A stretch of 63,933 bases of DNA, taken from the IMG/VR virus record IMGVR_UViG_3300006059_000003, positions 1 through 63,933 of that record; one strand, 5' to 3'. Below the pieces are notes generated by a model. It was not told the origin of the DNA. It saw only the letters and a list, made by a program, of their open reading frames with translations, and ran no database searches. Source of the stretch: a virus. Its lineage: Duplodnaviria > Caudoviricetes. A program made the position numbers and the translations under genes. Positions 279 through 63,634 of this stretch are shown here, piece by piece. Positions within the stretch are counted from its first letter, which is position 1. Each line of letters begins with the position of its first letter.

Positions 279-922
279 AGATTTACTTAGAAATAAGAGG
301 AATTCTTACAGTTATTTTGATTAACCCCTTCCTTTCTTTCTTTTTCCCTATAGATATATAATAATAGGAGAGGGTAGGTCTAGTTTCTGGATTGGAAAAA
401 GGGTACTCGATTCAATTCCTGAAATAACTTTTGGAGTAATTTCAATTACAGAATTTTGAGGAATGGTGGTAAGTCTAGTTTCTACATATACCCTTAGAGG
501 GTTTTTGTTTGGGTTTTTCCCTCTTATCTTGGTATTTAGAAACTACAGCAAGCTGGGGGTAGACTGCTCTGTGGGGATTTTTCTATAGAAAACCGCATTT
601 CATGGTATCACTGCGTCTAATTGCGTGTCAATGCCAATTTTTGGCACCTGTAGATACATATTAGGTAGTTATTGATAGTAAATACATGTAGTTATATGTA
701 GTTACTACCTTATAGGTTAAATACCCTGATATACCTATATGTATAAGAGACACTAAGTACAGAAATTACATTGTAATAATTGCAATTAGTACAAAAGTGA
801 AAAGCGGTATAGAGGATTGCGAATTAATGGAGATATTCCGGCATAATCTGGAATCCACCGAATTGCATACATATATGCAGATTCTTTTCCAGAGAATGAC
901 GCAGGAACACGGAAAACGGCAG

Positions 923-984
923 GATACGGGAAAATGCAGGTATCCTGCTATGAAATCGCTACACGGTCAATTCTGAGGCAGGAA
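923..984 (+). repeat. Degenerate ~62-bp direct repeat, copy 1
   Basis: GATACGGGAAAATG(C/T)AGG...ACGGTCAA-N6-GGCAGGAA; second copy at 6438-6500. Confidence 0.6.
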
Positions 985-1005
985 ACAGCATATATGAGCA
1001 GGGTA

Positions 1006-1035
1006 TTGACAGCAGATATATAGTTGTGTTAGTAT
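1006..1035 (+). promoter_or_regulatory. sigma70-type early promoter
   Basis: TTGACA-N18-TAGTAT with TG extended -10, upstream of RBS and ORF at 1087. Confidence 0.6.
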
Positions 1036-1086
1036 CCTGTTGTTGGGTATTGTCCTAACAATGCACTTTCACAAAGGAATACAGAA

Positions 1087-1224
1087 ATGAAAAAATTAGT
1101 AGATGTACTGATGTTTTTGCTATGTTTTGTTATTGCTATATCTATAGCAGTAATAAATAACTACACTAGTAATAATATTGCTAGAATCATAGTGAGAGGG
1201 ATAGGTACAGAAAATGCGAATTGA
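1087..1224 (+). CDS. Small membrane protein (45 aa)
   Basis: AAAGGA RBS; MKKLVDVLMFLLCFVIAISIAVI hydrophobic helix; below ORF-track cutoff. Confidence 0.5.
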   Translation: MKKLVDVLMFLLCFVIAISIAVINNYTSNNIARIIVRGIGTENAN

Positions 1225-1537
1225 CAGCGAACTAAGAACAGAACGGGTGAAATTACAATCCCCTATCGGCGATATGTGTGAGTATTGCGGTAAACATCTG
1301 GAAACAGGGAAATATTGCACAATCGTAGTAAACAAAGATGAATCTCGGTTTATTGATACAGGTGTTGATTTAATGGAGAAAATCCATCGTGTAAAAGCCG
1401 AAAATGGAGAAATGACACGGGAAGAGGGAAAAGAAGGCAATATGTTGTGTTTTCTAAATGCAGAAATGCAACATCTTGCAATCCGTCTAAATATCTACTG
1501 TTCTGAGAAGTGCTGTAAAGAGGATAAACAATTATGA
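1214..1537 (+). CDS. Hypothetical Zn-finger protein
   Basis: CxxC...LNIYCxxxC; similar to the 3940 product. Confidence 0.7.
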   Translation: MRIDSELRTERVKLQSPIGDMCEYCGKHLETGKYCTIVVNKDESRFIDTGVDLMEKIHRVKAENGEMTREEGKEGNMLCFLNAEMQHLAIRLNIYCSEKCCKEDKQL

Positions 1538-1701
1538 AGTTTGCCGAACTAATGGAAATGTTAGGGTATTTAAAACAGATATACCCTGCCACCAATTACC
1601 CTATGTATTACATACGTGTAATTACTCAATTCGGGAAAGTAGACATACGTGACTTTCGGGATTATGAAGGCTATAAACGCAGGATAGCAAATAGAGGATA
1701 G
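1534..1701 (+). CDS. Hypothetical protein (55 aa)
   Basis: ATGA overlap with the upstream stop, GAGGA RBS, followed by a terminator. Confidence 0.6.
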   Translation: MKFAELMEMLGYLKQIYPATNYPMYYIRVITQFGKVDIRDFRDYEGYKRRIANRG

Positions 1702-1720
1702 ATAATCTCTTTCCAAAGAA

Positions 1721-1761
1721 AACCGATACTCAAAAAACAAAAGAGTATCGGTTTTTTTTTT
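1721..1761 (+). terminator. Intrinsic terminator
   Basis: AACCGATACTC/GAGTATCGGTT stem plus poly-T. Confidence 0.85.
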
Positions 1762-1876
1762 GGTTTCCGATTTTGAAATACTGCCAGAATCTCAGGTTTT
1801 TAGTCTGATCTATTCCAGTATCGGGTATTGGGTGGCAGGGTATCGGGAAGAAATCCGATTTATTTTCTAAAATCTC

Positions 1877-1905
1877 TTGACACGCAGGATAAACGACGAT
1901 AGAAC
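1877..1905 (+). promoter_or_regulatory. sigma70-type promoter
   Basis: TTGACA-N17-TAGAAC. Confidence 0.45.
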
Positions 1906-4508: not shown

Positions 4509-4533
4509 ATAATCTCTTTTCCAGAGAAACCGG

Positions 4534-6500: not shown

Positions 6501-6896
6501 TCGGTATTCCCTAATCCCTGTCAGGGTATGGAATCGGGAATAATCGGAAGAATTGACATAGATCGGCTATCGTCTATCGGTATTCTCTTTCCAGAGAGAA
6601 TATGATTTTGCTTCTGGCTTATGGTCCGCTTTTACATACTAGATATACATACTGCGACGGGCGATACCGCAGGGTATACCAGTGTGAAACATGATTATTT
6701 TTTATCTGCTACTCTGTGAAACATTAGAAGATACCCTAAAACCGCTATAATTGACCGTACAGGTGCCTCCAGCTATTGCCCCCTATGATTCTACCTTCTG
6801 TTTTTCCTACGGCTTATGTAGGGAATGTTCAATTCCCCCTATATAGTTATACAATCAAGATGTAGTTAATACAGATAAAGCAAAACAGGGTAAAAA

Positions 6897-6912: not shown

Positions 6913-7321
6913 CCTTAAAACTGATAACTATTGATATATCTGATATAGAAACTAATAGTAATTGATAGATAACGTATGTTTCACGGAAATTGGTGTTTTG
7001 TTTTATGGGTGATTTCTGCTGATATATCTATTTAGACCCTACGCGGAATAGAATTCTCTTTCCAGAGAGGAGAGGGAATGGTTTCCTGTATATCAGATAT
7101 GGTTATCTGCATACGCGGATTAGATAGATATATTAGATATATTAGATATATTAACTATGACGATGATAATTGATTTATCTATATTAATGATTATATTAAG
7201 CTTAACTTATATGTTGTATGTAGTCTTGATTTTGCAATTATTAACCTTAGTTTACTGTTTCACTACGTAAACTAAGGTTTGGGATAATTGCTTTATTTAT
7301 TATATACAGAAGGGGATTAAC

Positions 7322-8858: not shown

Positions 8859-9031
8859 ACGCTCCTCGTCGCTTCGCTCCTCAGAGTCCGAATGTAGAAC
8901 ATATACTAATAGAGTAGTATCTATTACCTTAACTTCTTACTCTATCCGACTCCCTGCGGTCGTCGGCCTTCTATATAATCTCTATACACAATTCTCTTTC
9001 CAGAGAAAATACGCAAAGGAAACCTTCTGAT

Positions 9032-10027: not shown

Positions 10028-10096
10028 TTAACTTGTACCTATAGTTTATAAGGAAATTCTTTTCCAGAGAAAGGAGGCGCGGAACCGCAGAAATTA

Positions 10097-12933: not shown

Positions 12934-14229
12934 ATGTCAGCAACATGCAAAGTAAAAGTAAAACGAAAAGAAGAATCTACTGTATCTGTAGAAACTGTTC
13001 CCTCTAAGAAAACAGCAGTTAAATCTACATCTATAGGAAATTCTCTTCCAGAGAAATTGGAACCCGTTTCGGAACCGAAACCTAGATTTGTTCATAAGAA
13101 ACCTAATGTAAATTCTCCAGAAATAACCAATCAATTCTTAGTACCTTATGGAACTTCTAAAGGTATTGCTGGACCTATAGCAATATTATCTAAAGAAGTA
13201 AGAATAGGTTCTCAGGGAGGAATTATAGGTAATCCAAAAGCAGGTAAGAGACGCGGCGGAAGAGAAAGAAAACTTCATATCTATGACGAAGAAAGACAGT
13301 TAAGAGATAAAGTTATTGCTCATACTCCTGAAGGTAAGAGAATATTTGCATATAACAATAATGGAGTTCCTATTTGTTTCGCTAAACGTTCTAAAGAAAG
13401 TGAAAATTATCCAGAAGGCCATATAGGTAGAGTTCGTTGTCAGTCACATATTACTATGATGAATGGTAGATGTGCTAGACATGGAGGAAATGCACGTTCT
13501 GGACTAATGCACCCCCATGCTAAACATTTACGAACAGCAGAATCTCTCCCTAGACACCTTCGTGTAGATATGTTAGCCGCAGAAAATGACCCTGATCTTC
13601 TTTCTTTGAGACATGAAATAAAACTAAGTGATGTAAGAATTGCTAGTTTAAAACGTGACTTGGAATTAGGATTAAATTCTACTGCCGCTAGACGTATTGA
13701 TAATCTCCTACAGACTATTAACGAGAAACTAAGTAAAAAGTCTTCTTCACAATCTATTAATGAATTATTGTACGAATTAATAGAAGTTTACCAAAAAGGT
13801 AAATCTGAAAAAGCAGGATGGAAAGAGTTAGAAGAAGCTAAAGAAGCTAGACGTAAGTTATCAGAGTCAGAAGCTAAAAGAGAAACTCAACTCAAACTTA
13901 CTTTAGGTGCTAATCAAGTACTTACTCTAGTTTCTGCTATGGCTACTATTGCTCGTGATCTAATTGCTAAACTTATGAAAGACCTAGAATCTAGGTATAT
14001 TTTTATAGATAAAGCAAATGCACCTTTAGCATTACAGCAAACTCTTAAAGAATTTGTAGATTCTAACCCTACTTCAACTGCTGTAGTGAAACGACTTGAT
14101 CTTTCCTGGCAAACTCTGTTCTTAACTGATATGACTAGGAAATTGGGTAAATTAACTACAGGAACAGTTCGTGAAGAAGAAAAAGACGCTATGTATTCTG
14201 ATAGCGAATCAGATATAATGGACGAATAG
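12934..14229 (+). CDS. terS: Terminase small subunit-like (HGG Zn-finger domain plus coiled coil)
   Basis: C..RC...GRCARHGG motif (HGGxSTG-type), upstream of TerL. Confidence 0.55.
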   Translation: MSATCKVKVKRKEESTVSVETVPSKKTAVKSTSIGNSLPEKLEPVSEPKPRFVHKKPNVNSPEITNQFLVPYGTSKGIAGPIAILSKEVRIGSQGGIIGNPKAGKRRGGRERKLHIYDEERQLRDKVIAHTPEGKRIFAYNNNGVPICFAKRSKESENYPEGHIGRVRCQSHITMMNGRCARHGGNARSGLMHPHAKHLRTAESLPRHLRVDMLAAENDPDLLSLRHEIKLSDVRIASLKRDLELGLNSTAARRIDNLLQTINEKLSKKSSSQSINELLYELIEVYQKGKSEKAGWKELEEAKEARRKLSESEAKRETQLKLTLGANQVLTLVSAMATIARDLIAKLMKDLESRYIFIDKANAPLALQQTLKEFVDSNPTSTAVVKRLDLSWQTLFLTDMTRKLGKLTTGTVREEEKDAMYSDSESDIMDE

Positions 14230-15346: not shown

Positions 15347-15493
15347 GATAGTATCTACCATTTCTCTTCCAGAGAAGATGTAGAAAAGGGTTCCTTTGGT
15401 TTGTTTCCTTACCTTTTCTACTAAGTGAGGGAGTAGTAATTTCTGTTTTGAGAGGGATAGGGTTCTCTACTCCCTTATCTTAGAGTATAAACT

Positions 15494-25560: not shown

Positions 25561-25597
25561 GAATTTCCCTTCCAGGGAAAGAAAGGTTTCCGATTAA

Positions 25598-48998: not shown

Positions 48999-49232
48999 AT
49001 GACACCTAAAATAAAAGCAAAAATTAAGGTAAAACCAAAACCAATCGTACTTTCTGGAAGAGAACCTTCTACTGCATATTGTTTAGAAACTAGAGATTTT
49101 AACTTACAAGGCAACGACACAAACATGATCTCTACTTTCTCAACTAAAGAAGAACTTCTAGGTAGGATTGAATCTGAAATTGACGCAGGAAACAAACGAA
49201 TGATAGTTTCTGTAGTTGAAAGGTTGATATGA
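48999..49232 (+). CDS. Hypothetical protein with KIKAKIKVK N-terminus
   Basis: 77-aa ORF coupled to the next gene. Confidence 0.6.
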   Translation: MTPKIKAKIKVKPKPIVLSGREPSTAYCLETRDFNLQGNDTNMISTFSTKEELLGRIESEIDAGNKRMIVSVVERLI

Positions 49233-49765: not shown

Positions 49766-51154
49766 ATGAGTAACGTTCAAAATGAGTATATGAAGTATAA
49801 AGCTATTGCAGAAGCTACAGGAGAGAAGGTAATGACCTTCTCTCAATGGATAAACAAAGTAGAGTTAGAAGAGAAACTACTTACTAAGAAATCTACTACA
49901 GAAGAGGAAGAAGTAGAAGATGGTGGTTTAGATATAGATTCTGTAGATACTTCTGATTCTCAAATTGGAAATGAATTTGCATCTAAATCTTCACGAGCAT
50001 TATCTGCAATAACTGCGAATGCTAAAGGTACAAATTCTCTTCCAGAGAAACCTGCGGTTCGCATAATTCCTCATGTAAAAGAAACAGCAGTAGTACAAAA
50101 TTTCATTAAACCTGAAAAGCCTACTCAAATTGCTACACAAACTTCTCCTGCAATAAAAGTAGGAACTCCAGGCTACAAGGCTTATATTCAAGATGTTTCT
50201 GTAACTCTTTCAGACTTGGTTGCGCCACGGATTGCTAAATCTCTGGAAGAGAAACTACTGCAACTGATTGAAGAGAAGTCCCGCGATTGGACAGAGTATG
50301 GTAATTTCTATGACGCTATGCGAGAAGTTACTCCTGACTTTATGGTTATGTCCTGTAAGTTAGGGTATGTTGTACAGATTCTACACACTGATATGGGATT
50401 ATCTTTCTGGAAAGTAGTTTCTGCAATTAAGCCTACTCCACATGAAGCCTTACAATCTGCACTAGAATCTAAAGAATTATCATATCTTGTTGCAGAAAAA
50501 TTTCCTCTTCCTGCTATGCCTTATGACAATCAGTTTGAAGAAGAAAATGCAGTTAAAGCAAAGTATCAAAGTCAGAAGGAAGATCATATTAAGGAATTAG
50601 AGAGGACACTTCGTAACTGTCAGATACGACTTGATGAAGCGGCACAGTCTAAGAATTACAAGAAAGCCGCTGAAATAGAAACTCAGATGGAACAATTAGA
50701 GGAGTCTATTAAGTTAGCTTATCAGACAGCAGGGATTGATAGAGAGAAACGAAACATTCTACAAGAATACGTAGAATCTACTCCAACTCCGTTTATTGAT
50801 AATACTCCACAAGATACTCTAATAACTAGAAGTATTCCTGAATCAATGCAAGTACCAGAAGAGATTCTGTCTGACATTGATACAGTAATTACTAAAGGTA
50901 CAGAAGATGCTGACTTTCTTATTGAAATGGCAATAGGTAAAGAAGTTATTGGTAATCGAATGTATCATTCAAAAGGAAATGGAACAACAGTTAAAGGAGT
51001 ATTTGCTGGTAGGGTGATGCCTATTAATGATGGTAAAGCATTGGTATATGGTGTAAAATACCGAACACCTGATGGTAAGTTAAGGATGATAGCAATTAAA
51101 GAAGATACTATCATTGTAATGAAGGACACACAAGAAGAAACTATAGAAAAGTGA
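49766..51154 (+). CDS. Hypothetical protein with UVR-like coiled coil
   Basis: AAGGA RBS; LDEAAQSKNYKKAAEI resembles the UVR motif. Confidence 0.75.
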   Translation: MSNVQNEYMKYKAIAEATGEKVMTFSQWINKVELEEKLLTKKSTTEEEEVEDGGLDIDSVDTSDSQIGNEFASKSSRALSAITANAKGTNSLPEKPAVRIIPHVKETAVVQNFIKPEKPTQIATQTSPAIKVGTPGYKAYIQDVSVTLSDLVAPRIAKSLEEKLLQLIEEKSRDWTEYGNFYDAMREVTPDFMVMSCKLGYVVQILHTDMGLSFWKVVSAIKPTPHEALQSALESKELSYLVAEKFPLPAMPYDNQFEEENAVKAKYQSQKEDHIKELERTLRNCQIRLDEAAQSKNYKKAAEIETQMEQLEESIKLAYQTAGIDREKRNILQEYVESTPTPFIDNTPQDTLITRSIPESMQVPEEILSDIDTVITKGTEDADFLIEMAIGKEVIGNRMYHSKGNGTTVKGVFAGRVMPINDGKALVYGVKYRTPDGKLRMIAIKEDTIIVMKDTQEETIEK

Positions 51155-51217: not shown

Positions 51218-53623
51218 ATGCCTACAATAATACAATCAAATAAAGAGTTTAGACCTAAAAAGAATACAATAATTGCACTTGACACTGAAACAACAGGTGT
51301 AGATTCTTGGGGAAAGCGAGTACTATACTCTTCTGGAAAGAGACTCTATACTGCCGATTCTGTATTCATGGTTTCAATGTCTGATAGTGAAGGGAATACG
51401 TGGTGTTGTAATTGGCCCGTTGACCCATTCACCCGACAACCTGAGATTAATCAGAAAGATGTAGTATTTATACTTGATACTTTATCTAAGAAAGGAGTAC
51501 AATTAACTTGCCATAATACGAAGTTTGATACTCGTATGATGAAAAATGTAGATACTAGATTCAATCAAATATTCAAGCATTTACATTCTTTGGAGAAATT
51601 ACACGATACGTTATTTATGGCGCGTATCTGTTTTACTCTTGAATTAGCATATGGTCTAAAGTATCTATCTAAGAAAACTCTAGGTATAAGCGATGAAGAC
51701 GAAAAGGAATTGCAGAAAGCAGTAGCAACTGCACGTCGTAAAGCAACAATGTACAATAGACGTGTAGAGAAAGCTGGTGGAGAAAACCCTAAAGGTTTAG
51801 GTAATTTCTACCGTATGATGTTAATAGACAGTGAGGAGTTAAAAACTGACTATTGGCTTCCTTATTACTTCGACGAAAATCAAACAGGTGACGCTTTCCT
51901 TTGTGAGAAATACTGTAGATTTGATACATATAGAACTGTTGGACTGTATCAATTCTACAATGAGATAATGCAGAATGATAAACACCTGAGAGACACTTAC
52001 TATCTCGAAATGCAGAAAGTATGGCCTATTGTCGATTTCATGGAAACAAGAGGTATTACTGTATTTCCTGACAGAGCAAAAGAAGAATCAAAACGGTGTG
52101 AAGAAGAAGTTACTCTAAGATATAGTAACTTACAAAAGATAATTCGGGAACAGAATCTTAAACCTTTTCCAATAAAAGAAGTCCCTAATATAGATGCAGA
52201 TTCTCTTTCCAGAAAAAGACGGAATGCAAAACCAAAACCAGAACCTGAATTTAATCCAGGTTCTCCACAACAACTTCTTAGAGTACTCTATCTTCCAGAG
52301 AGTGAAGGAGGATTAGGATTAGAAACTGATAGACGAAACAGAAAGACAGGTAAATTAACTACAGATAAAGACACATTACGAGAGTTGATGTATTCTCCAT
52401 TTGTTAGAGAATTAACTGCATTTCGTGATGCCTCTCACACTAAGTCTCTATTCTTTGATAAGATAGAAGATATGGTAAAACCTTATGGATATAGTAACAG
52501 TAATAATGACGGTAGTAGGAGTAGTATTAATAGTACTGACAATACTATATGTATTATACGTCCTTCATTTAATCAATGCGGTACAAAATCAGGTAGACTA
52601 TCAGCAGGAGGAGAAGGGGGATTAAATGTACAGCAATTATCGGCAGGAGGAAAGAAATCATTAGGAGGAAGTACATATAGTTCACAGAAAGTATTCGGTT
52701 GTAGAAAAGATCATGTATGGTTAGGATTAGATTATTCACAACAAGAAGCGAGACTATTTGCAGGATTTGCACAAGTACCAGTAATGTTAGAAGCTATACG
52801 TAATAAAACAGATTTGTTTAAGGCTATGGCTAATAAAGCATGGGGAGGTGTAAATAATCCACAAAGTATTAAAGCAGTAATTCAGGCTCTTGATCTATTC
52901 CGTGAACCTGCTAATGGCGAAGTTTCTACGGCATGGCAACATCTAGGATGGTCAAAATCTAAAGCTAAGAAATGTAATCCTACTGATAAGTATGTACAGG
53001 AAGTATGTGAACAGTTTCTTTCTGAATTTGAGTATGACATTGTTAAAGCAGAATCTGCATTAGGTAAAGAAGCTAGTCGTCAGCGGTGTAAGCACATAAC
53101 TTATGCCAAAATCTTCGGCGGTGGTCCTGGTAGTTACACTCACTTGTTATACTGTACACTTGATGAAGCAAAGTTATTTGACTCTGAATACAATAACTCT
53201 ATGCCAGAGTTAAAGAGATACATCAAACAAGTAGAGAGAGAAGCTAGAGAAAATGGATTCATCATAAATGCTTATGGTAGAAAATTACGTGTAGACCCTA
53301 ACTTTGCTTACCGTGGAGTATCTTATATGATTCAAGGTACTGCCGCTGATATGATGAAAGCATCATTAGTTAAAGTGCATGAATTTAACCAATCTATCAA
53401 AGCAAGAGCATATCTAATTCTTACAATCCATGATGAATTGAAAGTAGAGATTCACAAAAGTGATCTTAACAGAGGATATGTGAAATCTGTAATTGCTAGA
53501 ATGGAGAATACAGAAGGAAGCACTGTCAATGTACCAATGACTGTAGAGTGTACAGTATCTCCACAATTCTGGAGCGTTGATGAATACAAATTACACGTAT
53601 GGGGTAAAGAAACAAACCTATGA
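51218..53623 (+). CDS. polA: DNA polymerase family A
   Basis: Exo I DTETTG, HNTKFD, HDT; motif A DYSQQEAR; motif B R..K...Y; IQGTAAD; motif C IHDEL. Confidence 0.95.
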   Translation: MPTIIQSNKEFRPKKNTIIALDTETTGVDSWGKRVLYSSGKRLYTADSVFMVSMSDSEGNTWCCNWPVDPFTRQPEINQKDVVFILDTLSKKGVQLTCHNTKFDTRMMKNVDTRFNQIFKHLHSLEKLHDTLFMARICFTLELAYGLKYLSKKTLGISDEDEKELQKAVATARRKATMYNRRVEKAGGENPKGLGNFYRMMLIDSEELKTDYWLPYYFDENQTGDAFLCEKYCRFDTYRTVGLYQFYNEIMQNDKHLRDTYYLEMQKVWPIVDFMETRGITVFPDRAKEESKRCEEEVTLRYSNLQKIIREQNLKPFPIKEVPNIDADSLSRKRRNAKPKPEPEFNPGSPQQLLRVLYLPESEGGLGLETDRRNRKTGKLTTDKDTLRELMYSPFVRELTAFRDASHTKSLFFDKIEDMVKPYGYSNSNNDGSRSSINSTDNTICIIRPSFNQCGTKSGRLSAGGEGGLNVQQLSAGGKKSLGGSTYSSQKVFGCRKDHVWLGLDYSQQEARLFAGFAQVPVMLEAIRNKTDLFKAMANKAWGGVNNPQSIKAVIQALDLFREPANGEVSTAWQHLGWSKSKAKKCNPTDKYVQEVCEQFLSEFEYDIVKAESALGKEASRQRCKHITYAKIFGGGPGSYTHLLYCTLDEAKLFDSEYNNSMPELKRYIKQVEREARENGFIINAYGRKLRVDPNFAYRGVSYMIQGTAADMMKASLVKVHEFNQSIKARAYLILTIHDELKVEIHKSDLNRGYVKSVIARMENTEGSTVNVPMTVECTVSPQFWSVDEYKLHVWGKETNL

Positions 53624-53954: not shown

Positions 53955-54560
53955 ATGGAAACAAAAATAAAAGTAGTTAATACTGCACAAAGAATACAAC
54001 AACAAATATGTGATGGTAAATGTAGAAAACCACGTATACTTAAACGTGTAATTTCTGGAGGTCAAAGAGGAGTAGATATTGCAGGAGTTAGAGCCGCTAA
54101 ACTTCTAGGTATAAAAACTGGTGGACATATGCCAGAAGGATTTATTACACAAGATGGTCCTAAGATAGGTTACAAGTGGCAGTACGGAATGGTTGATGAT
54201 ACTCCTCCTCTGGAAAAGAATGGAGAATTTAAACCTGACTATAAGACTAGAACCTGGAAGAATGTACAAGAAGCTGATGCAACTATTAGAATTGCAACTG
54301 ACTTTGACAGTTATGGTGAAGTTTGTACACTTAATGCAATACAACACTACCAGAAACTACATCTTGATATATACCTAATACCCTTATGGACTATTGACGG
54401 AGAAACACAGTACCGAATCCCACAAAGAGAACTTGCATACTGGATTGTCTCTCACGGGATTGAGACTCTAAATATTGCAGGTAATAGCTACAACAGTATA
54501 TACGATAAAGCCTATGCGTATATACTAAATACACTTTCTATTGTAGCGTGGGAGTTATGA
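53955..54560 (+). CDS. SLOG-superfamily 'putative molybdenum carrier' protein
   Basis: VISGGQRGVD.AG...GG..P.GF...RT..NV..ADAT...TLNIAGN. Confidence 0.8.
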   Translation: METKIKVVNTAQRIQQQICDGKCRKPRILKRVISGGQRGVDIAGVRAAKLLGIKTGGHMPEGFITQDGPKIGYKWQYGMVDDTPPLEKNGEFKPDYKTRTWKNVQEADATIRIATDFDSYGEVCTLNAIQHYQKLHLDIYLIPLWTIDGETQYRIPQRELAYWIVSHGIETLNIAGNSYNSIYDKAYAYILNTLSIVAWEL

Positions 54561-54561
54561 T

Positions 54562-57500
54562 ATGGTTTATATAAAGAAAGACAATATGAAAGTTCCTGCT
54601 GTACTTCGTCCGTTTATAAGGTTAGGTTTTGTGTATGATGAAGAGAAAGTATCAGGTGTAAATGTAAGAGGAGATTGTATCTTCTGTGGTAAAGTAGATA
54701 AATTTTACATACGTATAGAAGACGGTATAGGAAGTGATGGTAAGGAAAAGAAAGCGGGAATGTGGGATTGTAAATCCTGTCAGAAACTAGGGAATGTATA
54801 TTCCTTTATGAAGTTCTGGTATGATTTTTGGTTAGAAGAAAGGAAAAATTACAGTAAACAGTTTATAGAATTATCCTTAGATAGAGGAGTACCTGCAAAA
54901 ACTCTAAAAGATGCAGGAATTGTATATGACAATGACCAATTTGCTATTCCTGTAAGAAATGCAACAGGAACTATAAACAACTTCCGTTTCTACAATTTCT
55001 TTGGTAAAATTCCTAGAGGCAAAAAGAAACATCAACTCTATGGAATGCCGGAATTAGACAGTCAACTGTATGGTATGGATTCTCTTTTCCAGGGAGTAGC
55101 ACGCGGAATTCAGAAAGTGTATATCTGCTATAGTGCTGATACTGAAATTCTTACAGAAGAAGGTTGGATAAAATTTCCTACCCTTAAAAATCAAAAAGTA
55201 GCGCAATATGCAGAGAACACTCAGAATATAACTTTTGTAAAACCTCTAGCAAAACAGATTTTACCATATAGTAAGAAGATGGTAAATATAAAGGGTAATT
55301 CTTGTGACTTACTTGTAACTCCTGAACATAGAGTTCTTATAAAAGAAACAGATGGTATAAGAACTATACGTGCAGATCAAGTAAAGTCAGGAATGGTACT
55401 TCCTGTTTCTGGAGAATATAGAGGTAAAGGTTATTCTCCTAGTAATAACGAAGTAAAGCTACTTGTAGCTTATGCAGCTGATGGTCATAAAGAAAGAGGT
55501 AATAGACGTGCCTGGGCTTTTAAGAAAGAACGTAAAGTAAGTAGATTAATTGAGATACTAGAGTCATTAGAAATTCCGTACAAATTTGGTGGACTTTCTG
55601 CTAAAGGGTATACTCAAATAGTTGTTATGGCTTACGATGCTCCTATTCTTGACAGGATTATGCCTACTAAGCAGATAACTTCTGACTTTATTCACTGGTC
55701 TGTAGAAGCTAGAGAAACTCTAATTAATGAGTTAAGATTTTGGGACGGTGATACTGTCAGTAAGTACACACATAGAGTGTTTAGTGCAGATAAAGTACAA
55801 GTAGATGCTATCTCTTCCATATGCGTAACTACTGGATATAGTTGTAATATAAGAGAGGATACTAGAAAAAGCAGTATAAACTATATACTAAACATATCAC
55901 CTAGGAAGTATAGAAATGTAACTTCAGTTACTACACAAAGAAATATAACTAATAAAGTTTACTGTGTTACTGTACCTACAGGTACGGTAGTAGTAAGACG
56001 TAATGGGAAAATAGTTATCTGTAGAAACTGCGAGGGCGAATGGGATACTATAGCCTTAGAGTATCTATTAAGTAAAGAAAGTGTAGAAGCTATAGTTGTA
56101 GGAACTCCAGGTGCTAATACATGGAAAGCGTCTTGGAACAAATGTTTCTCTGGAAAGGAAGTTACTATATGTTATGATGTAGGAAGTGAAGGTGAGAAAG
56201 GTACAGAGAAAGTTTATCATAACCTAAAAGATATAGTAAGTAAGAGTAGTCCAATTAAGTATATTAATTGGAGTAAGAAAGGTGACTTACCTGATGGTTA
56301 CGATGTAAGAGACCATATAAAGCAAGGAGGAACTTATGAACAGTTTATACAGCTTGAAGAGAAATATACGTCTATCCCTGTAAAGGAAGAACAGAAACAA
56401 ACTGAGATAGAAAATACTCCTACTCTTCAAGAAGTCCAACAATCTAAATCACTATCTGCTAAACGCCCTACTTTTGAGAAGGTCTTAAAAGCCTATAGAA
56501 AGTATTTGTTTATGGATAAGGATATGGAGAATGGACTCAGGATAATGTTTGCTACTTGTCTTACTGTAGGAATAAAAGGTGACCCTCTATGGGTACATAC
56601 TATTGGCCCTCCTGGTAGTGGAAAAACTGCATTACTTATGTCTCTATCTAAGGTGAAGATAGTAGTATCTAAATCTTCTATTACAAGAAATGTACTTGTA
56701 TCTGGTATGAATGTCCATCCAGACCCTTCGTTAATTCCTAGACTTAATGGTAAACTATTTGTCTTTAAAGATTTTACAGAGTTGTTAGGTATGAGAAGTG
56801 ATGACAAGGAGTTTATATTTTCTACACTTAGAGGAGTGTATGATGGTACACTTGAAAAAGATCACGGCAACGGAACACAAAGAGATTTCAAATCTCACTT
56901 CAATATGCTTACAGGAGTAACTCAAAAGATATTCACAGAAAATAGATCAATCATGGGTGAAAGATTTCTTCTGTACCATATGGTAAAAGGTACAGATTAT
57001 GACAGTCGTAATCCTGTAATGGCGGCAATAGATTCTGTGGGTAGTGAAGTACCAATACATGAAGAACTTGTAGGAATTGCGGCAGAGTATCTTGATGTTA
57101 GAGTAAGTAAGGAAGATATACCAGTAATTCCTCAACATTATAAAGAGAAGATATACTCTCTAGCATGTCTTACTTCGTTATTACGTGCTACTGTGGAAAG
57201 ACTGTCAAAGGTAGATAGGAAGTTAATGCTACGTCCACAACAAGAAATGCCTACACGAATTGCTAAACAGCTAACTAAACTCCTTATGGGATTATCTCTA
57301 CTAAATACTCCAATACAGTATACTCAGGAAGACATAGCATTAGTTACTAGAGTAGCATTAGATTCATGCGTAGCATTTAACCTTGAAACAGTATCTTCGT
57401 TAATACAGAAACCAGGACAAACATTAGTCGATCTAGCAATAGATTCTAATATTCCACACTCTACATTAAGAGATCACATTGAAGATTTAGTAGAGTTAGG

Positions 57501-57717
57501 AGTTATCCGTTATGTAGCTGGAGAAACTACAAGTGACTTTCAAGGAAGAGGTAGAAAACCACACACTTACTATGTAACACCTAAGATGGAGAAAATATGG
57601 AAAGACGCTTCTCTGGAAAGAAAAGACGGTGAAGTATATATGAAGTTAAAATCTCTTTTCCAGAGAAATGTAACGCAATCGACGCAATCGCAGAAAGTAA
57701 AGGTAAAGCGAAAATGA
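54562..57717 (+). CDS. Primase-helicase (Zn finger, TOPRIM, AAA+, C-terminal wHTH) containing an intein
   Basis: CIFC..CKSC; CEGEWD and CYD TOPRIM; DVRD; GPPGSGKT; C-terminal HTH. Confidence 0.85.
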   Translation: MVYIKKDNMKVPAVLRPFIRLGFVYDEEKVSGVNVRGDCIFCGKVDKFYIRIEDGIGSDGKEKKAGMWDCKSCQKLGNVYSFMKFWYDFWLEERKNYSKQFIELSLDRGVPAKTLKDAGIVYDNDQFAIPVRNATGTINNFRFYNFFGKIPRGKKKHQLYGMPELDSQLYGMDSLFQGVARGIQKVYICYSADTEILTEEGWIKFPTLKNQKVAQYAENTQNITFVKPLAKQILPYSKKMVNIKGNSCDLLVTPEHRVLIKETDGIRTIRADQVKSGMVLPVSGEYRGKGYSPSNNEVKLLVAYAADGHKERGNRRAWAFKKERKVSRLIEILESLEIPYKFGGLSAKGYTQIVVMAYDAPILDRIMPTKQITSDFIHWSVEARETLINELRFWDGDTVSKYTHRVFSADKVQVDAISSICVTTGYSCNIREDTRKSSINYILNISPRKYRNVTSVTTQRNITNKVYCVTVPTGTVVVRRNGKIVICRNCEGEWDTIALEYLLSKESVEAIVVGTPGANTWKASWNKCFSGKEVTICYDVGSEGEKGTEKVYHNLKDIVSKSSPIKYINWSKKGDLPDGYDVRDHIKQGGTYEQFIQLEEKYTSIPVKEEQKQTEIENTPTLQEVQQSKSLSAKRPTFEKVLKAYRKYLFMDKDMENGLRIMFATCLTVGIKGDPLWVHTIGPPGSGKTALLMSLSKVKIVVSKSSITRNVLVSGMNVHPDPSLIPRLNGKLFVFKDFTELLGMRSDDKEFIFSTLRGVYDGTLEKDHGNGTQRDFKSHFNMLTGVTQKIFTENRSIMGERFLLYHMVKGTDYDSRNPVMAAIDSVGSEVPIHEELVGIAAEYLDVRVSKEDIPVIPQHYKEKIYSLACLTSLLRATVERLSKVDRKLMLRPQQEMPTRIAKQLTKLLMGLSLLNTPIQYTQEDIALVTRVALDSCVAFNLETVSSLIQKPGQTLVDLAIDSNIPHSTLRDHIEDLVELGVIRYVAGETTSDFQGRGRKPHTYYVTPKMEKIWKDASLERKDGEVYMKLKSLFQRNVTQSTQSQKVKVKRK
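55126..56028 (+). mobile_element. Intein with LAGLIDADG homing endonuclease (301 aa)
   Basis: Starts CYSADTEILT; VTPEHR block B; VAYAADG and LRFWDG; ends VYCVTV...ICRN, +1 Cys of CEGEWD. Confidence 0.9.
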
Positions 57718-61110: not shown

Positions 61111-61898
61111 TTGATACTACACTTAGTAAGATGTTCCCACAAGGTTGTCTTCCTGATTGGCTTATAGAAGATTCTGTAAAAGAATGCAAAGACTTCAAAC
61201 GTCGAGAAGAACTAGGCAAAACAGTTTCTACAGACTACTATCTTAATATAGGTCTGATAGATATAGAACCTTTTAACAAAGATCAAGTCCAACCAGCTTC
61301 TTATGATGTTAGGTTAGGAAATTCTTTTAAGATTCTCGATAAGAATAGAGGAATGACTATAGACCCTATAAAATGGGCAGACCCTTTAGGTAGACCTACA
61401 GTAGTTTATAGAGATATAGGAGTTAGTGAGTCCGGCATTTTAATTCTTCATCCAGGGGATTTACTACTAGCAACTACAGAAGAAGTTATTTCTCTTCCCA
61501 GGAATATACAAGGTTCTGTAGAAGGTAAATCTTCTCTTGCTAGATTAGGATTATCTGTACATTCTACTGGAAGATTTATAGACCCTGGATTTTCAGGACA
61601 GATAACCTTAGAGATTTCTACAATTTCTAATCCTATAATCCTCCGTCCTGGTATGTTTATTGCTCAGATAAACTTCCTACACTTAACTGCTCCCTGTCAT
61701 AGACCTTATGGTGATAAGAGTAGAGATAGTAAGTATCAAAATCAGCAAGGGGCTACAGAATCTAAATACTATGAAAACAAAAGTAAAGGTGAAGAAGAAA
61801 GTACAGGAGACTTTAGAGAAACAATTAAGAACCCAAGAGAATATACCAGAAAATACGAGCAAAGATACGGAGGTAGAGCAGAAACAGACGGAGGATAG
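61107..61898 (+). CDS. dcd: dCTP deaminase
   Basis: QPASYDVRLG, EGKSSLARLGL.VH, IDPGFSGQITLE, KYQNQ. Confidence 0.92.
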   Translation: MIDTTLSKMFPQGCLPDWLIEDSVKECKDFKRREELGKTVSTDYYLNIGLIDIEPFNKDQVQPASYDVRLGNSFKILDKNRGMTIDPIKWADPLGRPTVVYRDIGVSESGILILHPGDLLLATTEEVISLPRNIQGSVEGKSSLARLGLSVHSTGRFIDPGFSGQITLEISTISNPIILRPGMFIAQINFLHLTAPCHRPYGDKSRDSKYQNQQGATESKYYENKSKGEEESTGDFRETIKNPREYTRKYEQRYGGRAETDGG

Positions 61899-62319
61899 TT
61901 TAATTCCTACAGAAGTTTCATGTGATAGATTTACTCTCCATCCTGCTAAGAATTCAATGGGTGTAAGACCTAAACCTCTTATGTATATTGATTTTCAAAT
62001 AGTAAGACCCGGAATGTCCGGGTCTGAATTTCCTGGAGGAAAATTAATAATAACATATAGGGATGATGAAGAGATAAAATCTAGGGTTGTTACCTTCGTT
62101 GGTTTCTTAGAGTGTATTAAACATTTCTTAAATATACAGTTAGGTAATATATCTGTAGAATTTATAGATAAACAAGATTCTAATGAGGGAAAAACTGCCG
62201 CGCAAATAATGCAGGATAGGATGGAAAAAATACAGTATACAGAAGAAAATGAGATTGTACGAAATAAGAGTATAACTCCTATGTTTACTCCAAAAACTAC
62301 AGGATATAGGAAGAAATAG
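61771..62319 (+). CDS. Hypothetical protein (MKTKVKVKKK start; track start 61708)
   Basis: ATG at 61771; overlaps the dcd 3' end. Confidence 0.6.
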   Translation: MKTKVKVKKKVQETLEKQLRTQENIPENTSKDTEVEQKQTEDSLIPTEVSCDRFTLHPAKNSMGVRPKPLMYIDFQIVRPGMSGSEFPGGKLIITYRDDEEIKSRVVTFVGFLECIKHFLNIQLGNISVEFIDKQDSNEGKTAAQIMQDRMEKIQYTEENEIVRNKSITPMFTPKTTGYRKK

Positions 62320-62333
62320 AGAAAGTAATAACA

Positions 62334-62714
62334 ATGCCACGAAAGAAAACTGGTGATAGAACTGGTGGATTTTTTAATACACCATCGCGATCAAATCCTG
62401 ACCCTAGTGATATTGAGTTTAGGATAATTTCTACTAGAGAAGCACAAAAGAACATACTAGAAAGAGAAGAAAGGGAGAAGCAACTTATAGCTAAAAATAA
62501 GTGTACTATTTGCTGTAAACCTAACATAATTCAGGAACAGTTAGATTTTGTTTCTGAGAGTGTAAAAACTGCTACAAGAAATGGCTACCTTACCACTATG
62601 GAGAAAGAAGCTGTTACATTAGTAGTTAAGAAAATGTACAAAGATCAAAACTGTGGTTGGGATTTTACTTTGTGTACTTCCTGCAACAGTCACTCTGCAA
62701 ACTACGAGAAATAA
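62334..62714 (+). CDS. Hypothetical Zn-finger protein
   Basis: CTIC...CTSC. Confidence 0.65.
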   Translation: MPRKKTGDRTGGFFNTPSRSNPDPSDIEFRIISTREAQKNILEREEREKQLIAKNKCTICCKPNIIQEQLDFVSESVKTATRNGYLTTMEKEAVTLVVKKMYKDQNCGWDFTLCTSCNSHSANYEK

Positions 62715-62730
62715 GAAAGAAGGTTAAAAA

Positions 62731-63345
62731 ATGTATGTAGTCTGTAATAAATGTAAGTTAAGATATGACGATACATACTGTACTACAGTATGTCCTCATA
62801 GGGGTTTAGATTATTGCGTTGCTTGTGATTGTGTCGTCTGTACATGCCCGCAAGACACCTTAAACGAGCGTTCTAATGTTTACATCAGATGGCATCAAGA
62901 CGGTAGTGAGATATTTGAAGTAGGAATTCTAGGTAATACTGTAGAAGAAGACGAAAAGAAACAGACTCTTATAGAGTTTTTACAGTCATTAGGAGTAAAA
63001 CTAGAACCTAGTCATATCTCAATAATACAGGTTTTAGAATCTGGAAAAGTAATTTCTATACGAAAGGTAAACGATTCTGTTATTACTTTTGAAAGATATG
63101 GGATAGTTCTTACAGAACTTCCTAATAATCCTTTACTTGTAAATACTGGAAGAAATATAATAGAAGATACTCAAATATTTATACAAGAAGTAGTTCCTAT
63201 ACTTACTTCTAATAGTCTTATGCAAAATCTTGCAGATCAACTTACTATGTACTTAAAGAGTAGATTCTATAATGATGATGAAATAAGACAGATAGTTTCG
63301 GTAGTTTTACAAATGCAACAGCAACACAATTCCAGAGTACTATAA
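62731..63345 (+). CDS. Hypothetical protein with Cys-rich N-terminus
   Basis: CNKC..YDD..C..VCPH...CVAC...CTC. Confidence 0.7.
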   Translation: MYVVCNKCKLRYDDTYCTTVCPHRGLDYCVACDCVVCTCPQDTLNERSNVYIRWHQDGSEIFEVGILGNTVEEDEKKQTLIEFLQSLGVKLEPSHISIIQVLESGKVISIRKVNDSVITFERYGIVLTELPNNPLLVNTGRNIIEDTQIFIQEVVPILTSNSLMQNLADQLTMYLKSRFYNDDEIRQIVSVVLQMQQQHNSRVL

Positions 63346-63350
63346 TAAAA

Positions 63351-63387
63351 AAGCCTAGCTCTACTGTAGGAACTAGGCTTTCTTTTT
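63351..63387 (+). terminator. Intrinsic terminator ending the replication operon
   Basis: AAGCCTAG/CTAGGCTT plus T-rich tract. Confidence 0.75.
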
Positions 63388-63396
63388 GACTACTCT

Positions 63397-63416
63397 GTGA
63401 AACATTTTTGTTTCAC
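63397..63416. repeat. Palindrome GTGAAACA-TTTT-TGTTTCAC
   Basis: Identical to 259-278. Confidence 0.8.
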
Positions 63417-63634
63417 GGAATTAAATTGCATTTTTCGGAAAATTGCATTTTGGCTTGCTTGCTTCAAACGGTATTGCAACATATTTGCATTAAAATTTTC
63501 AATGCTTTTTTCTGGAAAAGAATTTCCTACAGATAACTAAAAATCCCGTCTCATTATGTGAAATTTTATCTAACCTTTACCAGGTGTAATAAATAGGCTA
63601 ACCTTTGGAATTGGATGATTTTGTACCCGAAATT

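What the first reader, a model, noticed from the sequence alone, without database searches (positions are those of the whole stretch)
882..63522. Genome-wide lattice of a 15-17 bp interrupted palindrome written into genes and intergenic DNA
Seen: TTCTCT-TCC-AGAGAA (6-bp arms around a TCC/TTCC/TTTCC core) recurs roughly every 1-2.5 kb across the whole genome. Exact copies: 13041, 15362, 23862, 26640, 38903, 40314, 50035. Variants on +: 882, 1706, 4513, 6583, 7054, 8992, 10057, 17785, 21759, 25565, 33016, 35011, 44252, 47323, 52201, 55080, 57652. Variants on -: 28456, 31267, 34730, 38510, 39096, 41468, 49051, 50240, 51331, 54208, 56146, 57609, 63510. Inside genes it falls in different frames and forces shared peptides into unrelated proteins: NSLPEK in TerS, the holin-like, the DUF4326 protein and 49766; SLFQ in TMP and primase; SSRE/SSRR in the gp10-like protein and TMP; SLERK in 38241 and primase. 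Selection is therefore acting on the DNA. The 25565 copy has a compensatory arm change (TTCCCT/AGGGAA). Copies I found up to ~26.6 kb are all + oriented and later ones are mixed. Inference: a phage-wide cis-site system, for example binding sites for a phage DNA-organising or protective protein, stoperator-like roadblocks (compare mycobacteriophage L5), programmed nick sites (compare T5), or packaging/ejection signals. It does not match any motif I recognise.
Basis: partly seen in the sequence, partly recalled or inferred. Interest (0 to 1): 0.9.

Follow-up and report, generated by a model that had tools for sequence, protein, structure and literature searches.

The report
Strand-biased DNA motif lattice in phages
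This uncultured phage and its relatives carry about 30-45 copies of a short DNA word built around CCAGAGA, written through genes and gaps alike, which looks like a set of landing sites for the phage's own DNA-copying machinery rather than anything gene-regulatory.

Summary
TTCTCTTCCAGAGAA occurs 7 times, all on + (0 in shuffles), and all 37 listed coordinates hold a copy or variant.

The conserved unit is not the palindrome. It is an asymmetric site: a pyrimidine tract, then CCAGAGA, then purines. The window, a complete 63.9-kb virus record, has 31 sites by matrix scan and 45 by a looser rule against 4.7 in shuffles.

- Synonymous-codon shuffles cannot explain it: 17 against 0.68 in coding DNA.
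- Three relatives with about 50% protein identity and 38-54% GC carry the same core with their own flanks.
- 28 site positions coincide between genomes against 3.7 expected.
- Gene-strand sites are evenly spaced, about 2.6 kb apart, in all four genomes.
- A generic form is enriched in 18 of 68 contigs sharing this phage's primase and in 0 of 30 unrelated contigs.
- It occurs with unrelated terminases.
- In one complete genome it keeps its strand through a module transcribed the other way.

My best guess, at about 0.3, is strand-specific start sites for the phage primase. Nicks, Chi-like sites and roadblocks remain rivals. No cultured phage carries this primase.

The parts
882..896 (+). motif copy (core CCAGAGA at 889)
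   Evidence: score 29.6
1706..1720 (+). variant copy (CCAAAGA)
4514..4528 (+). motif copy, intergenic, 11 nt before an intrinsic-terminator-like hairpin (4532-4564)
6584..6598 (+). motif copy
7055..7069 (+). motif copy in the 1.6-kb non-coding region
8993..9007 (+). motif copy, intergenic, 26 nt before the start codon at 9032
10057..10071 (+). motif copy, intergenic, 27 nt before the start codon at 10097; best matrix score
   Evidence: 36.0
13041..13055 (+). exact copy, 5' part of ORF 12934-14229 (TerS-like by a weak lead)
15362..15376 (+). exact copy, intergenic upstream of the large terminase gene; position shared with G001
17784..17798 (+). motif copy in the portal gene
19029..19043 (+). 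motif copy
21759..21773 (+). variant (CCAGGGA), intergenic after the major capsid gene; position shared with G001 and G003
23862..23876 (+). exact copy inside ORF 23487-24008
25565..25579 (+). variant with compensatory arms (TTCCCT/AGGGAA), intergenic
26640..26654 (+). exact copy, intergenic, 28 nt before the start codon at 26681; position shared with G002
28456..28470 (-). minus-strand copy between a terminator-like hairpin (28396-28439) and the tape-measure start codon
31235..31249 (+). variant (CCAGAAA) in the tape-measure gene, convergent with the next copy
31267..31281 (-). minus-strand copy in the tape-measure gene, 19 bp from the previous core
33016..33030 (+). variant (CCAGAAG)
34730..34744 (-). 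minus-strand copy, intergenic, before the start codon at 34753
35010..35024 (+). variant (CCAGGAA) in ORF 34753-35223 (weak 'minor tail protein' match only); a site at about this place in all four genomes, in different reading frames
38510..38524 (-). minus-strand copy
38903..38917 (+). exact copy
39096..39110 (-). minus-strand copy next to the terminator-like hairpin at 39123-39146
40314..40328 (+). exact copy in the DUF4326/zinc-ribbon gene; same alignment column in G002 and G003
41467..41481 (-). minus-strand copy in the helicase gene
44252..44266 (+). variant (CCAGAAA) in the PD-(D/E)XK nuclease gene
47325..47339 (+). motif copy, intergenic upstream of ORF 47389 (DUF669-like by a lead); position shared with G002 and G003
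49050..49064 (-). minus-strand variant (CCAGAAA)
50035..50049 (+). exact copy in ORF 49766-51154
50239..50253 (-). minus-strand copy in ORF 49766-51154
51329..51343 (-). minus-strand variant (CCAGAAG) in the DNA polymerase gene
52202..52216 (+). variant (CCAGAAA) in the DNA polymerase gene
52288..52302 (+). motif copy in the DNA polymerase gene
54206..54220 (-). minus-strand variant (CCAGAGG)
55082..55096 (+). variant (CCAGGGA) in the primase gene; position shared with G003
56146..56160 (-). minus-strand copy in the primase gene
57609..57623 (-). minus-strand copy, divergent with the next copy, cores 41 bp apart
57653..57667 (+). motif copy at the 3' end of the primase gene; position shared with G003
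63508..63522 (-). minus-strand variant (CCAGAAA)
54562..57717 (+). candidate trans-acting factor (inferred, not shown): a primase with a weak CHC2 zinc ribbon, a Toprim_2 domain, a conserved GxGKT motif and a weak C-terminal winged helix, interrupted here by a probable intein

Best explanation
Shown:
- This is a genome-wide set of about 31-45 copies of one asymmetric DNA site, roughly 15-22 bp long: a pyrimidine-rich tract, the near-invariant core CCAGAGA, and a short purine run.
- It is kept by selection on the DNA itself, inside genes in all three reading frames and on both strands.
- The core is shared by a whole lineage of uncultured phages. Each lineage has its own flanks.
- In this clade about two thirds of the sites lie on the gene strand. 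Those sites form an evenly spaced series, about one every 2.6 kb.

Inferred:
- The sites are read by a conserved protein of the phage's replication module, as a property of one DNA strand.
- My preferred mechanism is that they are the preferred start sites of the phage's zinc-ribbon/TOPRIM primase on the lagging-strand template.
- A primase needing a long, rare word would force the genome to supply that word at intervals the length of an Okazaki fragment. Selection would place it wherever the DNA tolerates it, in intergenic gaps and variable protein linkers.
- The complement of the core, TCTCTGG, contains CTG, the start triplet of E. coli DnaG (PMC5737085). I cannot tell from sequence which strand is the template.
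- Minority sites on the other strand would serve forks moving the other way.
For: The sites are real and under DNA-level selection:
- Searches give the counts against shuffles.
- Synonymous-codon shuffles give 17 observed against 0.68, 17 against 0.84, 30 against 2.1 and 21 against 2.2 in the four genomes.

- The same core occurs in genomes with 36%, 41%, 38% and 54% GC.
- 28 same-strand site pairs coincide within 45 nt in ortholog-mapped coordinates, against 3.7 expected.

The function is strand-specific:
- 98 sites lie on the gene strand and 46 on the other (P = 1.8e-5).
- Gene-strand sites are evenly spaced in all four genomes: 23-27 sites each, mean gap 2.5-2.7 kb, CV 0.48-0.62 against about 0.94 for random placement, P = 0.0004, 0.0096, 0 of 5000 simulations, and 0.0004.
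- The two strands pooled are less regular, with CV 0.62-0.76.
- Minus-strand sites do not fill gaps in the plus-strand series.
- One strand is also regular in G017 (P = 0.038), G011 (P = 0.009) and G013 (P = 0.006).

The motif travels with the replication module, not the packaging module:
- A generic form of the motif is enriched at P < 1e-3 in 18 of 68 loci that carry this primase family, and in 0 of 30 unrelated control loci.
- Positive loci cluster on the primase tree: 9 changes against a shuffled mean of 16.0, with 0 of 500 shuffles as low.
- The near-complete motif-positive genomes G013, G014 and G017 show no match to this clade's terminase profile.

It is not tied to transcription:
- In G017 the 49.7-60 kb module is transcribed leftward, yet all 4 sites there are +.
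- Most sites lie inside genes.

The candidate reader exists:
- The primase is one of the core genes shared by all four genomes.
- It has Toprim_2, a weak CHC2 zinc ribbon and a weak winged helix at the same place in three orthologs.

From the literature:
- Zinc-ribbon primases start at specific template words with untranscribed 'cryptic' bases (PMC5737085, passages).
- Flanking sequence changes T7 primase binding up to 10-fold (bioRxiv 266924, abstract).
Against: - Nothing here shows priming, or binding by any protein.
- The primases listed in the passages I read recognise three or four bases, not 15-22.
- The link to the primase is no tighter than the link to the other genes inherited with it. 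DNA polymerase A, AAA_24 and the PD-(D/E)XK nuclease are equally common near positive and negative loci. Only 18 of 68 primase-bearing loci pass my generic test.
- Strand preference is not universal. L211, L217, L222 and G013 have roughly equal numbers on both strands. In G015 neither strand is evenly spaced.
- No orientation switch appears around the clustered iterons at 7.4-8.2 kb, which could be an origin (my count from the site lists).
- If CTG on the complementary strand is the start triplet, the majority sites would prime for forks moving against transcription, which is unusual.
- The convergent palindromic pairs in L202 and L204, and the dyad with one compensatory change in this genome, would suit a dimer binding double-stranded DNA equally well.
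- Gene calls are crude longest-ORF calls, so the intergenic fractions are approximate.
Confidence: 0.3

Rival explanations
1. The sites bind another, unidentified DNA-binding protein of the replication/recombination module. One version is a Chi-like signal that tames the phage's own helicase and PD-(D/E)XK nuclease. Another is nucleation sites for a protein that marks or organises phage DNA.
For: - The motif travels with the replication module and not with the terminase.
- A helicase, a PD-(D/E)XK nuclease, an AAA_24 protein and a DUF669-like protein are all encoded.
- Both strands are used, with a 2:1 bias.
- The palindromic pairs in L202 and L204, and the dyad in this genome, fit a dimer on double-stranded DNA.
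Against: - An orientation-blind binder of double-stranded DNA would make the pooled sites the evenly spaced set. Instead one strand alone is regular, and the other strand is placed independently of it.
- By my recollection Chi sites are 5-8 nt; this site carries about 24-33 bits.
- No gene near the primase separates motif-positive from motif-negative loci.
- No candidate binder was identified.
Confidence: 0.22
2. The sites are programmed single-strand nick sites in virion DNA, as in T5, the phiKMV-like phages and phage tf.
For: - Known nick sites are 7-19-nt consensus words scattered through the genome. Their positions are similar in related phages and the word differs slightly between lineages (PMC3517423, passages).
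- All of that is seen here.
- There is strand bias, and orientation does not follow transcription in G017.
Against: - In T5-like, phiKMV-like and tf-group phages all sites lie on one strand only. Here 46 of 144 sites are on the other strand.
- Opposite-strand pairs lie 19-25 bp apart in this clade and 9-15 bp apart in L202 and L204. Nicking both would tend to break the genome.
- No nickase candidate was found.
- I could list no sequencing run holding the phage, so read ends could not be examined.
Confidence: 0.12
3. The sites are binding sites of a transcription regulator that blocks or modulates elongation, like the stoperators of Cluster A mycobacteriophages.
For: - Stoperators are asymmetric sites, 20-30 per genome, mostly not at promoters, with lineage-specific consensus (PMC6550527, passages). 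The number, asymmetry and lineage-specific flanks match.
- Sites are about 3-fold enriched in intergenic DNA.
- Conserved intergenic positions lie after the capsid gene and after the gene orthologous to 26681, and before the terminase gene and ORF 47389.
Against: - Stoperators are oriented with transcription. Here only 98 of 144 sites are.
- In G017 all 4 sites in the leftward-transcribed module are antisense.
- No repressor, helix-turn-helix regulator, integrase or partition gene was found.
- No prophage relative was found.
- 65-80% of sites lie inside genes.
Confidence: 0.1
4. The sites are promoters or terminators for a phage-directed RNA polymerase or sigma factor.
For: - Several copies sit 20-28 nt before start codons.
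- The structural region 20-40 kb is poor in sigma-70-like matches, 37 against 67.8 expected.
- About 24 same-sense sites in 64 kb is a plausible promoter density.
Against: - No RNA polymerase or sigma factor was detected.
- A third of the sites are antisense and most lie inside genes.
- Good sigma-70-type promoters and intrinsic terminators exist separately.
- No second promoter element was found between -50 and +45.
- There is the G017 antisense block.
Confidence: 0.05
5. The sites are packaging or ejection signals read by the terminase or the portal.
For: - One copy lies in or before the TerS-like ORF, and another before the large terminase gene.
- The strand bias could follow the direction of packaging.
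Against: - Near-complete motif-positive genomes (G013, G014, G017) have no terminase related to this clade's.
- Phages sharing only the terminase lack the motif, and they also lack the primase and polymerase.
Confidence: 0.03

Closest known systems
Stoperators of Cluster A mycobacteriophages (L5, Bxb1; PMC6550527, passages read)
   Same: - An asymmetric site.
- 20-30 copies spread over a genome of about 50 kb.
- Most copies are not at promoters.
- Lineage-specific variants of one consensus, with some syntenic positions.
   Different: - Stoperators follow the direction of transcription and belong to temperate phages with a cognate repressor.
- Here a third of the sites are antisense.
- One genome keeps the orientation through an oppositely transcribed module.
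- Most sites are inside genes.
- No repressor or lysogeny gene was found.
Localised nick sites of T5, phiKMV-like phages and phage tf (PMC3517423, passages read)
   Same: - A short consensus word scattered through the genome, with strand bias.
- Positions are similar in relatives, and the word drifts between lineages.
- The function is unknown there too.
   Different: - Known systems have every site on one strand, with 4-14 major sites per genome.
- Here there are 31-45 sites, a third of them on the other strand, sometimes in close opposed pairs.
- Whether the DNA is physically nicked is untested.
17-bp dyad repeat of Cluster O mycobacteriophages (PMC4351075, passages read)
   Same: - More than 30 copies of a repeat of about 17 bp, with short inverted arms around a 3-bp spacer.
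- It lies between and inside genes.
- The function is unknown.
- This matches the form the motif takes in this window.
   Different: - The sequence is different.
- There the two 7-bp arms are invariant and symmetric. Here only the right half is conserved.
- The dyad disappears in relatives.
Recognition words of zinc-ribbon/TOPRIM primases (T7 GTC, E. coli CTG, AtTwinkle (G/C)GGA; PMC5737085 passages, bioRxiv 266924 abstract)
   Same: - A strand-specific word on single-stranded template, read by a zinc ribbon, with untranscribed bases and an influence of flanking sequence.
- The complement of the core contains CTG.
- The spacing is in the range of Okazaki fragments (the range is recalled).
   Different: - Known words are 3-4 bases and occur by chance often enough to need no lattice.
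- Here the site is 15-22 bp and has to be maintained by selection.
- No biochemistry exists for this primase family.
Chi sites and other polar genome words (KOPS, uptake sequences); recalled, no paper read
   Same: - Over-represented oriented words embedded in genes, read by DNA-processing machines.
- Chi shows a strand bias of about 3:1.
   Different: - Those words are host-genome features of 5-12 nt.
- This is a phage-encoded system whose core is kept across phages of very different GC content.

Membership tests
Cluster A stoperator system | Asymmetric site present 20-30 times per genome | tested here: met
   31-44 sites per genome with an asymmetric consensus.
Cluster A stoperator system | [quoted passage not shown] | tested here: not met
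   98 of 144 sites are sense. In G017 all 4 sites in the leftward-transcribed module are antisense.
Cluster A stoperator system | Cognate immunity repressor and a temperate life style | tested here: not met
   No repressor, helix-turn-helix regulator or integrase in about 60 ORFs scanned. No prophage relative. Unknown small proteins remain, so absence is not proven.
Localised nick sites (T5 / phiKMV / tf type) | Short consensus word at scattered, relative-conserved positions | tested here: met
Localised nick sites (T5 / phiKMV / tf type) | All sites on one DNA strand | tested here: not met
   46 of 144 sites lie on the other strand. Opposed pairs lie 9-25 bp apart.
Localised nick sites (T5 / phiKMV / tf type) | Ligatable nick in virion DNA | not testable with these tools
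   No run holding the phage was listed, so no reads could be laid.
Cluster O-type dyad repeat | Two invariant inverted arms around a 3-bp spacer | tested here: not met
   At least 5 of 6 arm pairs in 23 of 31 sites here, but in 2 of 34, 9 of 44 and 7 of 35 sites in relatives. The sequence is unrelated.
Primase start sites (zinc-ribbon/TOPRIM primases) | A cognate zinc-ribbon/TOPRIM primase is encoded | tested here: met
   Toprim_2 above Pfam's cut-off in two orthologs. The CHC2 zinc ribbon is below the cut-off here, but is annotated in many homologues.
Primase start sites (zinc-ribbon/TOPRIM primases) | Strand-specific use, with spacing suited to lagging-strand synthesis | tested here: inconclusive
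   One strand is evenly spaced at about 2.6 kb in 4 of 4 clade genomes and in 3 of 4 others. Some lineages use both strands equally.
Primase start sites (zinc-ribbon/TOPRIM primases) | Primers begin at the site | not testable with these tools
   Needs biochemistry or Okazaki-fragment mapping.
Sigma-70 promoter / intrinsic terminator | -35 and -10 hexamers, or a GC hairpin followed by a T run | tested here: not met
   Separate good promoters and terminators exist. There is no further conserved element around the motif. The hairpin is weak and has no T run.
Known RNA families | Match to an Rfam model | tested here: not met
   0 matches at gathering score in the window. No tRNA genes.

The most novel reading that the evidence does not exclude
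A large lineage of uncultured phages uses a primase with long sequence specificity. Their genomes must therefore carry a maintained, evenly spaced lattice of 15-22-bp start sites on the lagging-strand template, written through protein-coding genes. The lattice would set Okazaki-fragment length by sequence. It would also act as a self-mark, restricting the phage replisome to phage DNA.
Probability: 0.3. Interest if true: 0.9.

Novelty: new variant of a known kind. Interest (0 to 1): 0.8.

Why it matters
Dispersed site lattices in phage genomes are rare, and most are unexplained. Stoperators are understood. Nick sites and the Cluster O repeat are not.

This lattice has features not seen together before:
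- The core is kept across phages of 36-55% GC.
- It tolerates being written into proteins in any reading frame.
- It is evenly spaced on one strand.
- It travels with a replication module rather than with a life style or a packaging system.

If the sites are primase or replisome entry points, they would show that a genome can be shaped throughout by the sequence needs of its own replication enzyme. They would also supply a ready-made enzyme and site pair for biochemistry.

If they are something else, the lattice still marks a conserved protein-DNA recognition system that nobody has described, in a group with no cultured member.

In practice the motif is a simple sequence signature for recognising this phage lineage in metagenomes.

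Tried and rejected
Leads that went nowhere:
- **Nucleotide search of cultured phages** found nothing. Protein searches with four proteins found only distant relatives.
- **Single-protein terminase scan** of viral contigs found nothing. The profile scan worked.
- **The metagenome scan** returned the same contigs.
- **The genome-collection scan** found no prophage.
- **Sequencing runs:** none was listed for window 20001-30000, and no RNA holder was listed. I therefore made no read-laying run, and have no read-end or expression data.
- **Close strains:** the fragments related to G001 and G003 are 99.99-100% identical, so I could not test substitutions at sites against flanks.
- **Paper search by the motif string** returned primer lists only. 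A search for 'repeated motif / evenly / both strands' produced the Cluster O paper and nothing on this motif. I found no description of this motif, but five further searches are not proof of absence.
- **Gene-association test:** no gene within 10 kb of the primase separates motif-positive from motif-negative loci.
- **Strand calling by an RNY score** labelled only 71% of the windows of this all-plus genome correctly. I do not rely on its sense/antisense counts, nor on those for GC-rich loci.
- **Protein atlas** gave only leads: DUF669-like for 47389 and weakly terminase-small-subunit-like for 12934.
- **Solved-structure search** of the primase gave nothing below E = 0.18.

Ideas rejected:
- A codon-usage or peptide artefact.
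- An RNA element (most sites are in genes on both strands).
- A hairpin as the functional unit.
- The host promoter.
- A downstream CGG..AACC hairpin as a general feature. It is clear only in G002 and partly in this genome.
- An orientation switch around the iteron cluster (none, by my count).

Full report
**What the window is.** The window is a whole IMG/VR virus record of 63,933 bp, rated 100% complete and linear, with 36% GC.
- All substantial ORFs are on the + strand.
- Family scans identify a large terminase (15494-17419), a portal, a major head protein (20601-21722) and a helicase.
- They also identify a UDG-like protein, a PD-(D/E)XK nuclease, an AAA_24 protein, DNA polymerase A, ThyX with an intein, and a dCTP deaminase.
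- The 1562-aa ORF at 28477 sits where a tape measure would; that reading rests on position and size only.
- No cultured phage is close, by nucleotide search or by protein searches with four proteins.

**The observation.** The exact 15-mer occurs 7 times, all on +, against none in 100 shuffles. A k-mer census shows that the over-represented unit is the right half.
- TTCCAGAGA occurs 18 times on + and 12 on -; the reversed-word control gives 0 and 0.
- Aligning the sites gives a pyrimidine tract, then CCAGAGA, then purines.
- A refined matrix finds 31 sites, 24 on + and 7 on -.
- A looser rule finds 45 sites against 4.7 in shuffles.
- Shuffling synonymous codons within genes, which keeps each protein and its codon usage, leaves 0.68 copies of TTCCAGAGA where 17 are observed. 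Selection is therefore on the DNA.

**Relatives.** A terminase profile retrieved three further full-length records, G001, G002 and G003. Their GC contents are 41%, 38% and 54%.
- They are syntenic with the window at 22-60% protein identity, about 50% for the conserved structural and replication proteins.
- All their genes are on one strand.
- In each, the most enriched words are built on the same heptamer with lineage-specific flanks: aTCATTCCCAGAGAA in G001, TTCTTCTACCAGAGAaAACGG..AACC in G002, and tCTnyTyCCAGAGAr in G003.
- They have 34, 44 and 35 sites respectively, and the same excess over synonymous shuffles.
- The hairpin is only -3.5 kcal/mol as single-stranded DNA and no better than shuffles.

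**Anatomy of the lattice.**
- *Strand.* 98 sites are on the gene strand and 46 on the other.
- *Spacing.* Gene-strand sites number 23-27 per genome, with a mean gap of 2.5-2.7 kb. They are much more even than random: CV 0.48-0.62, and P between 0 of 5000 simulations and 0.0096. The other strand is mostly not regular, the pooled set is less regular, and minus-strand sites do not sit in the gaps of the plus-strand series.
- *Placement.* 20-33% of sites are intergenic against 8-11% non-coding DNA. The rest lie in genes in all three frames. The longest-ORF gene calls probably hide some further intergenic sites.
- *Conservation of place.* In coordinates mapped through ortholog alignments, 28 same-strand site pairs coincide within 45 nt, against 3.7 expected from circular shifts. 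The excess is significant in 5 of 6 genome pairs. Shared places include the gaps after the capsid gene and after the gene orthologous to 26681, the gaps before the terminase gene and before ORF 47389, and variable linkers inside ORF 34753, the DUF4326 gene, the nuclease, the polymerase and the primase. The encoded peptides and frames differ between genomes at several of these places. There is also much turnover.
- *Extent.* No further conserved element lies between -50 and +45.

**What it is not.**
- It matches no Rfam family, and there are no tRNA genes.
- It is not the host promoter or terminator. Separate good sigma-70-type promoters exist, including a perfect consensus at 45749, as do intrinsic terminators.
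- About 60 ORFs scanned against Pfam or PHROGs show no repressor, integrase, sigma factor or RNA polymerase.
- No prophage relative was found in a scan of 185,579 genomes.
- A separate cluster of about 7 iterons (TTCTACACTAAG, in both orientations) lies in the non-coding stretch at 7.4-8.2 kb. G001 has its own cluster. These look like an origin or control region distinct from the lattice.

**How far the motif reaches.** Phages that share only the terminase show no enrichment. They also lack this primase and polymerase.

The primase carries Toprim_2, a weak CHC2 zinc ribbon, a conserved GxGKT motif and a weak winged helix. In this window it is interrupted by a probable intein. It has many uncultured homologues.
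- Among 68 viral loci of at least 12 kb that carry it, 18 are enriched at P < 1e-3 for a generic form of the motif (at least 6 of 7 pyrimidines, then CCAGARR).
- None of 30 unrelated control loci is enriched. The three control loci that pass at P < 1e-3 are pieces of G001, G003 and G005, and a piece of G002 comes close at P = 3.7e-3.
- Positive loci cluster on the primase tree.
- Their consensus words are recognisably the same: atTTcTTCTCCCAGAAAAaA, TTtTtcTCCAGAAGatgcc, and ggag.AtCtctcCCAGAAGA.gGGCC.
- In L202 and L204 the sites often form convergent palindromic pairs.
- The near-complete positive genomes G013, G014 and G017 have no match to this clade's terminase profile. The motif therefore goes with the replication module.
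- No gene near the primase distinguishes positive from negative loci, so I cannot single out the primase statistically.
- No cultured phage carries a close homologue.

**Strand or transcription?** G017 is a complete 60-kb genome with terminal repeats and 39% GC, so its ORF calls are reliable. Its genes from 49.7 to 60 kb run leftward. The 4 sites there are all +, like 12 of the 17 sites elsewhere in that genome.

Stoperators flip with transcription (PMC6550527); these sites do not. This rests on 4 sites in one genome.

**Mechanism.** The facts call for five things:
- a phage-encoded reader that is conserved across the lineage;
- action on DNA rather than RNA;
- sensitivity to strand;
- a need for sites at regular intervals on one strand;
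- indifference to what the DNA encodes.

Lagging-strand priming is the process that inherently needs periodic events on one strand. The primase is a core gene with a zinc ribbon of the kind that reads template words (PMC5737085), and flanking sequence is known to modulate such primases (bioRxiv 266924, abstract). The complement of the core contains CTG, the E. coli DnaG triplet. I therefore put priming start sites first, at about 0.3.

This is inference. Known primase words are far shorter. Some lineages use both strands equally. The palindromic pairs would suit a dimer on duplex DNA. The strand that would carry CTG implies forks moving against transcription.

The rivals, in order:
- another replication or recombination protein, acting as a Chi-like or organising signal (0.22);
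- nicks (0.12), weakened by the two-strand distribution and the close opposed pairs, against the strictly one-strand sites of known systems (PMC3517423);
- stoperator-like roadblocks (0.10);
- promoters or terminators (0.05);
- packaging signals (0.03).

**Comparison and novelty.** The nearest described things are stoperators, localised nick sites, and the Cluster O 17-bp dyad repeat. The last resembles the form the motif takes in this window, with more than 30 copies between and inside genes and no known function (PMC4351075). This lattice fails a defining feature of each (see the membership table).

I rate it a new variant of a known kind, the dispersed site lattice of phage genomes. It would become categorically new if the priming reading holds.

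Noticed in passing
window 7473-8183: About 7 copies of a second repeat (TTCTACACTAAG, in both orientations) cluster in the 1.6-kb non-coding region. This may be a replication origin or control region. G001 has an analogous cluster of CTAAACTCTAG at 3.3-4.7 kb of its gene-sense orientation.
   Followed up: partly
window 54562-57717 and 58700-60511: There are two probable inteins. The primase has an insert of about 300 aa that its orthologues lack; it matches intein-bearing proteins of unrelated families. ThyX carries an intein with NUMOD4 and HNH domains.
   Followed up: partly
window 45749-45777: A perfect sigma-70 consensus promoter (TTGACA, 17 nt with TG, TATAAT) lies in the gap before the AAA_24 gene. 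A near-perfect one lies at 39524-39552. The host therefore probably uses standard sigma-70 promoters.
   Followed up: no
window 20001-40000: Sigma-70-like matches are depleted in the structural region: 37 found against 67.8 (sd 8.2) in shuffles.
   Followed up: no
window 9330-9360: A (CT)n microsatellite of about 30 bp lies in an intergenic gap, on the + strand only.
   Followed up: no
window 5896-5929 and 6375-6414: The same terminator-like hairpin sequence (AAACAACCTAA...TTAGGTTGTTT) occurs twice, about 480 bp apart.
   Followed up: no
window 39583-40893 and 53955-54560: One protein has three DnaJ-type CXXCXGXG zinc ribbons plus DUF4326. Another is a circularly permuted YpsA (SLOG) protein. 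Both are conserved in all four genomes and their function is unknown.
   Followed up: no
G003 (gene-sense orientation) 40355-40600: An array of about 14 tandem 18-bp repeats (CCGATCTTGGCCCATGCA-like) lies inside ORF 40253-40846. A 10-bp palindrome (ACAGCGTCTG / CAGACGCTGT) also occurs at 9 scattered places.
   Followed up: no
L264 and L205 (other phages with this primase family): Different words are strongly enriched on both strands: ACAGTGTG 17 times in 19.5 kb in L264, and CCGGAGCC 21 times in 16 kb in L205. Other branches of the family may carry different lattices.
   Followed up: no
G002, first and last ~180 bp: A near-identical stretch holding a motif-like site (CAAGAGA core) stands at both ends of the record. 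This is either a terminal repeat or the overlap of a circular assembly. L130 shows that the G001 sequence joins end to start.
   Followed up: partly
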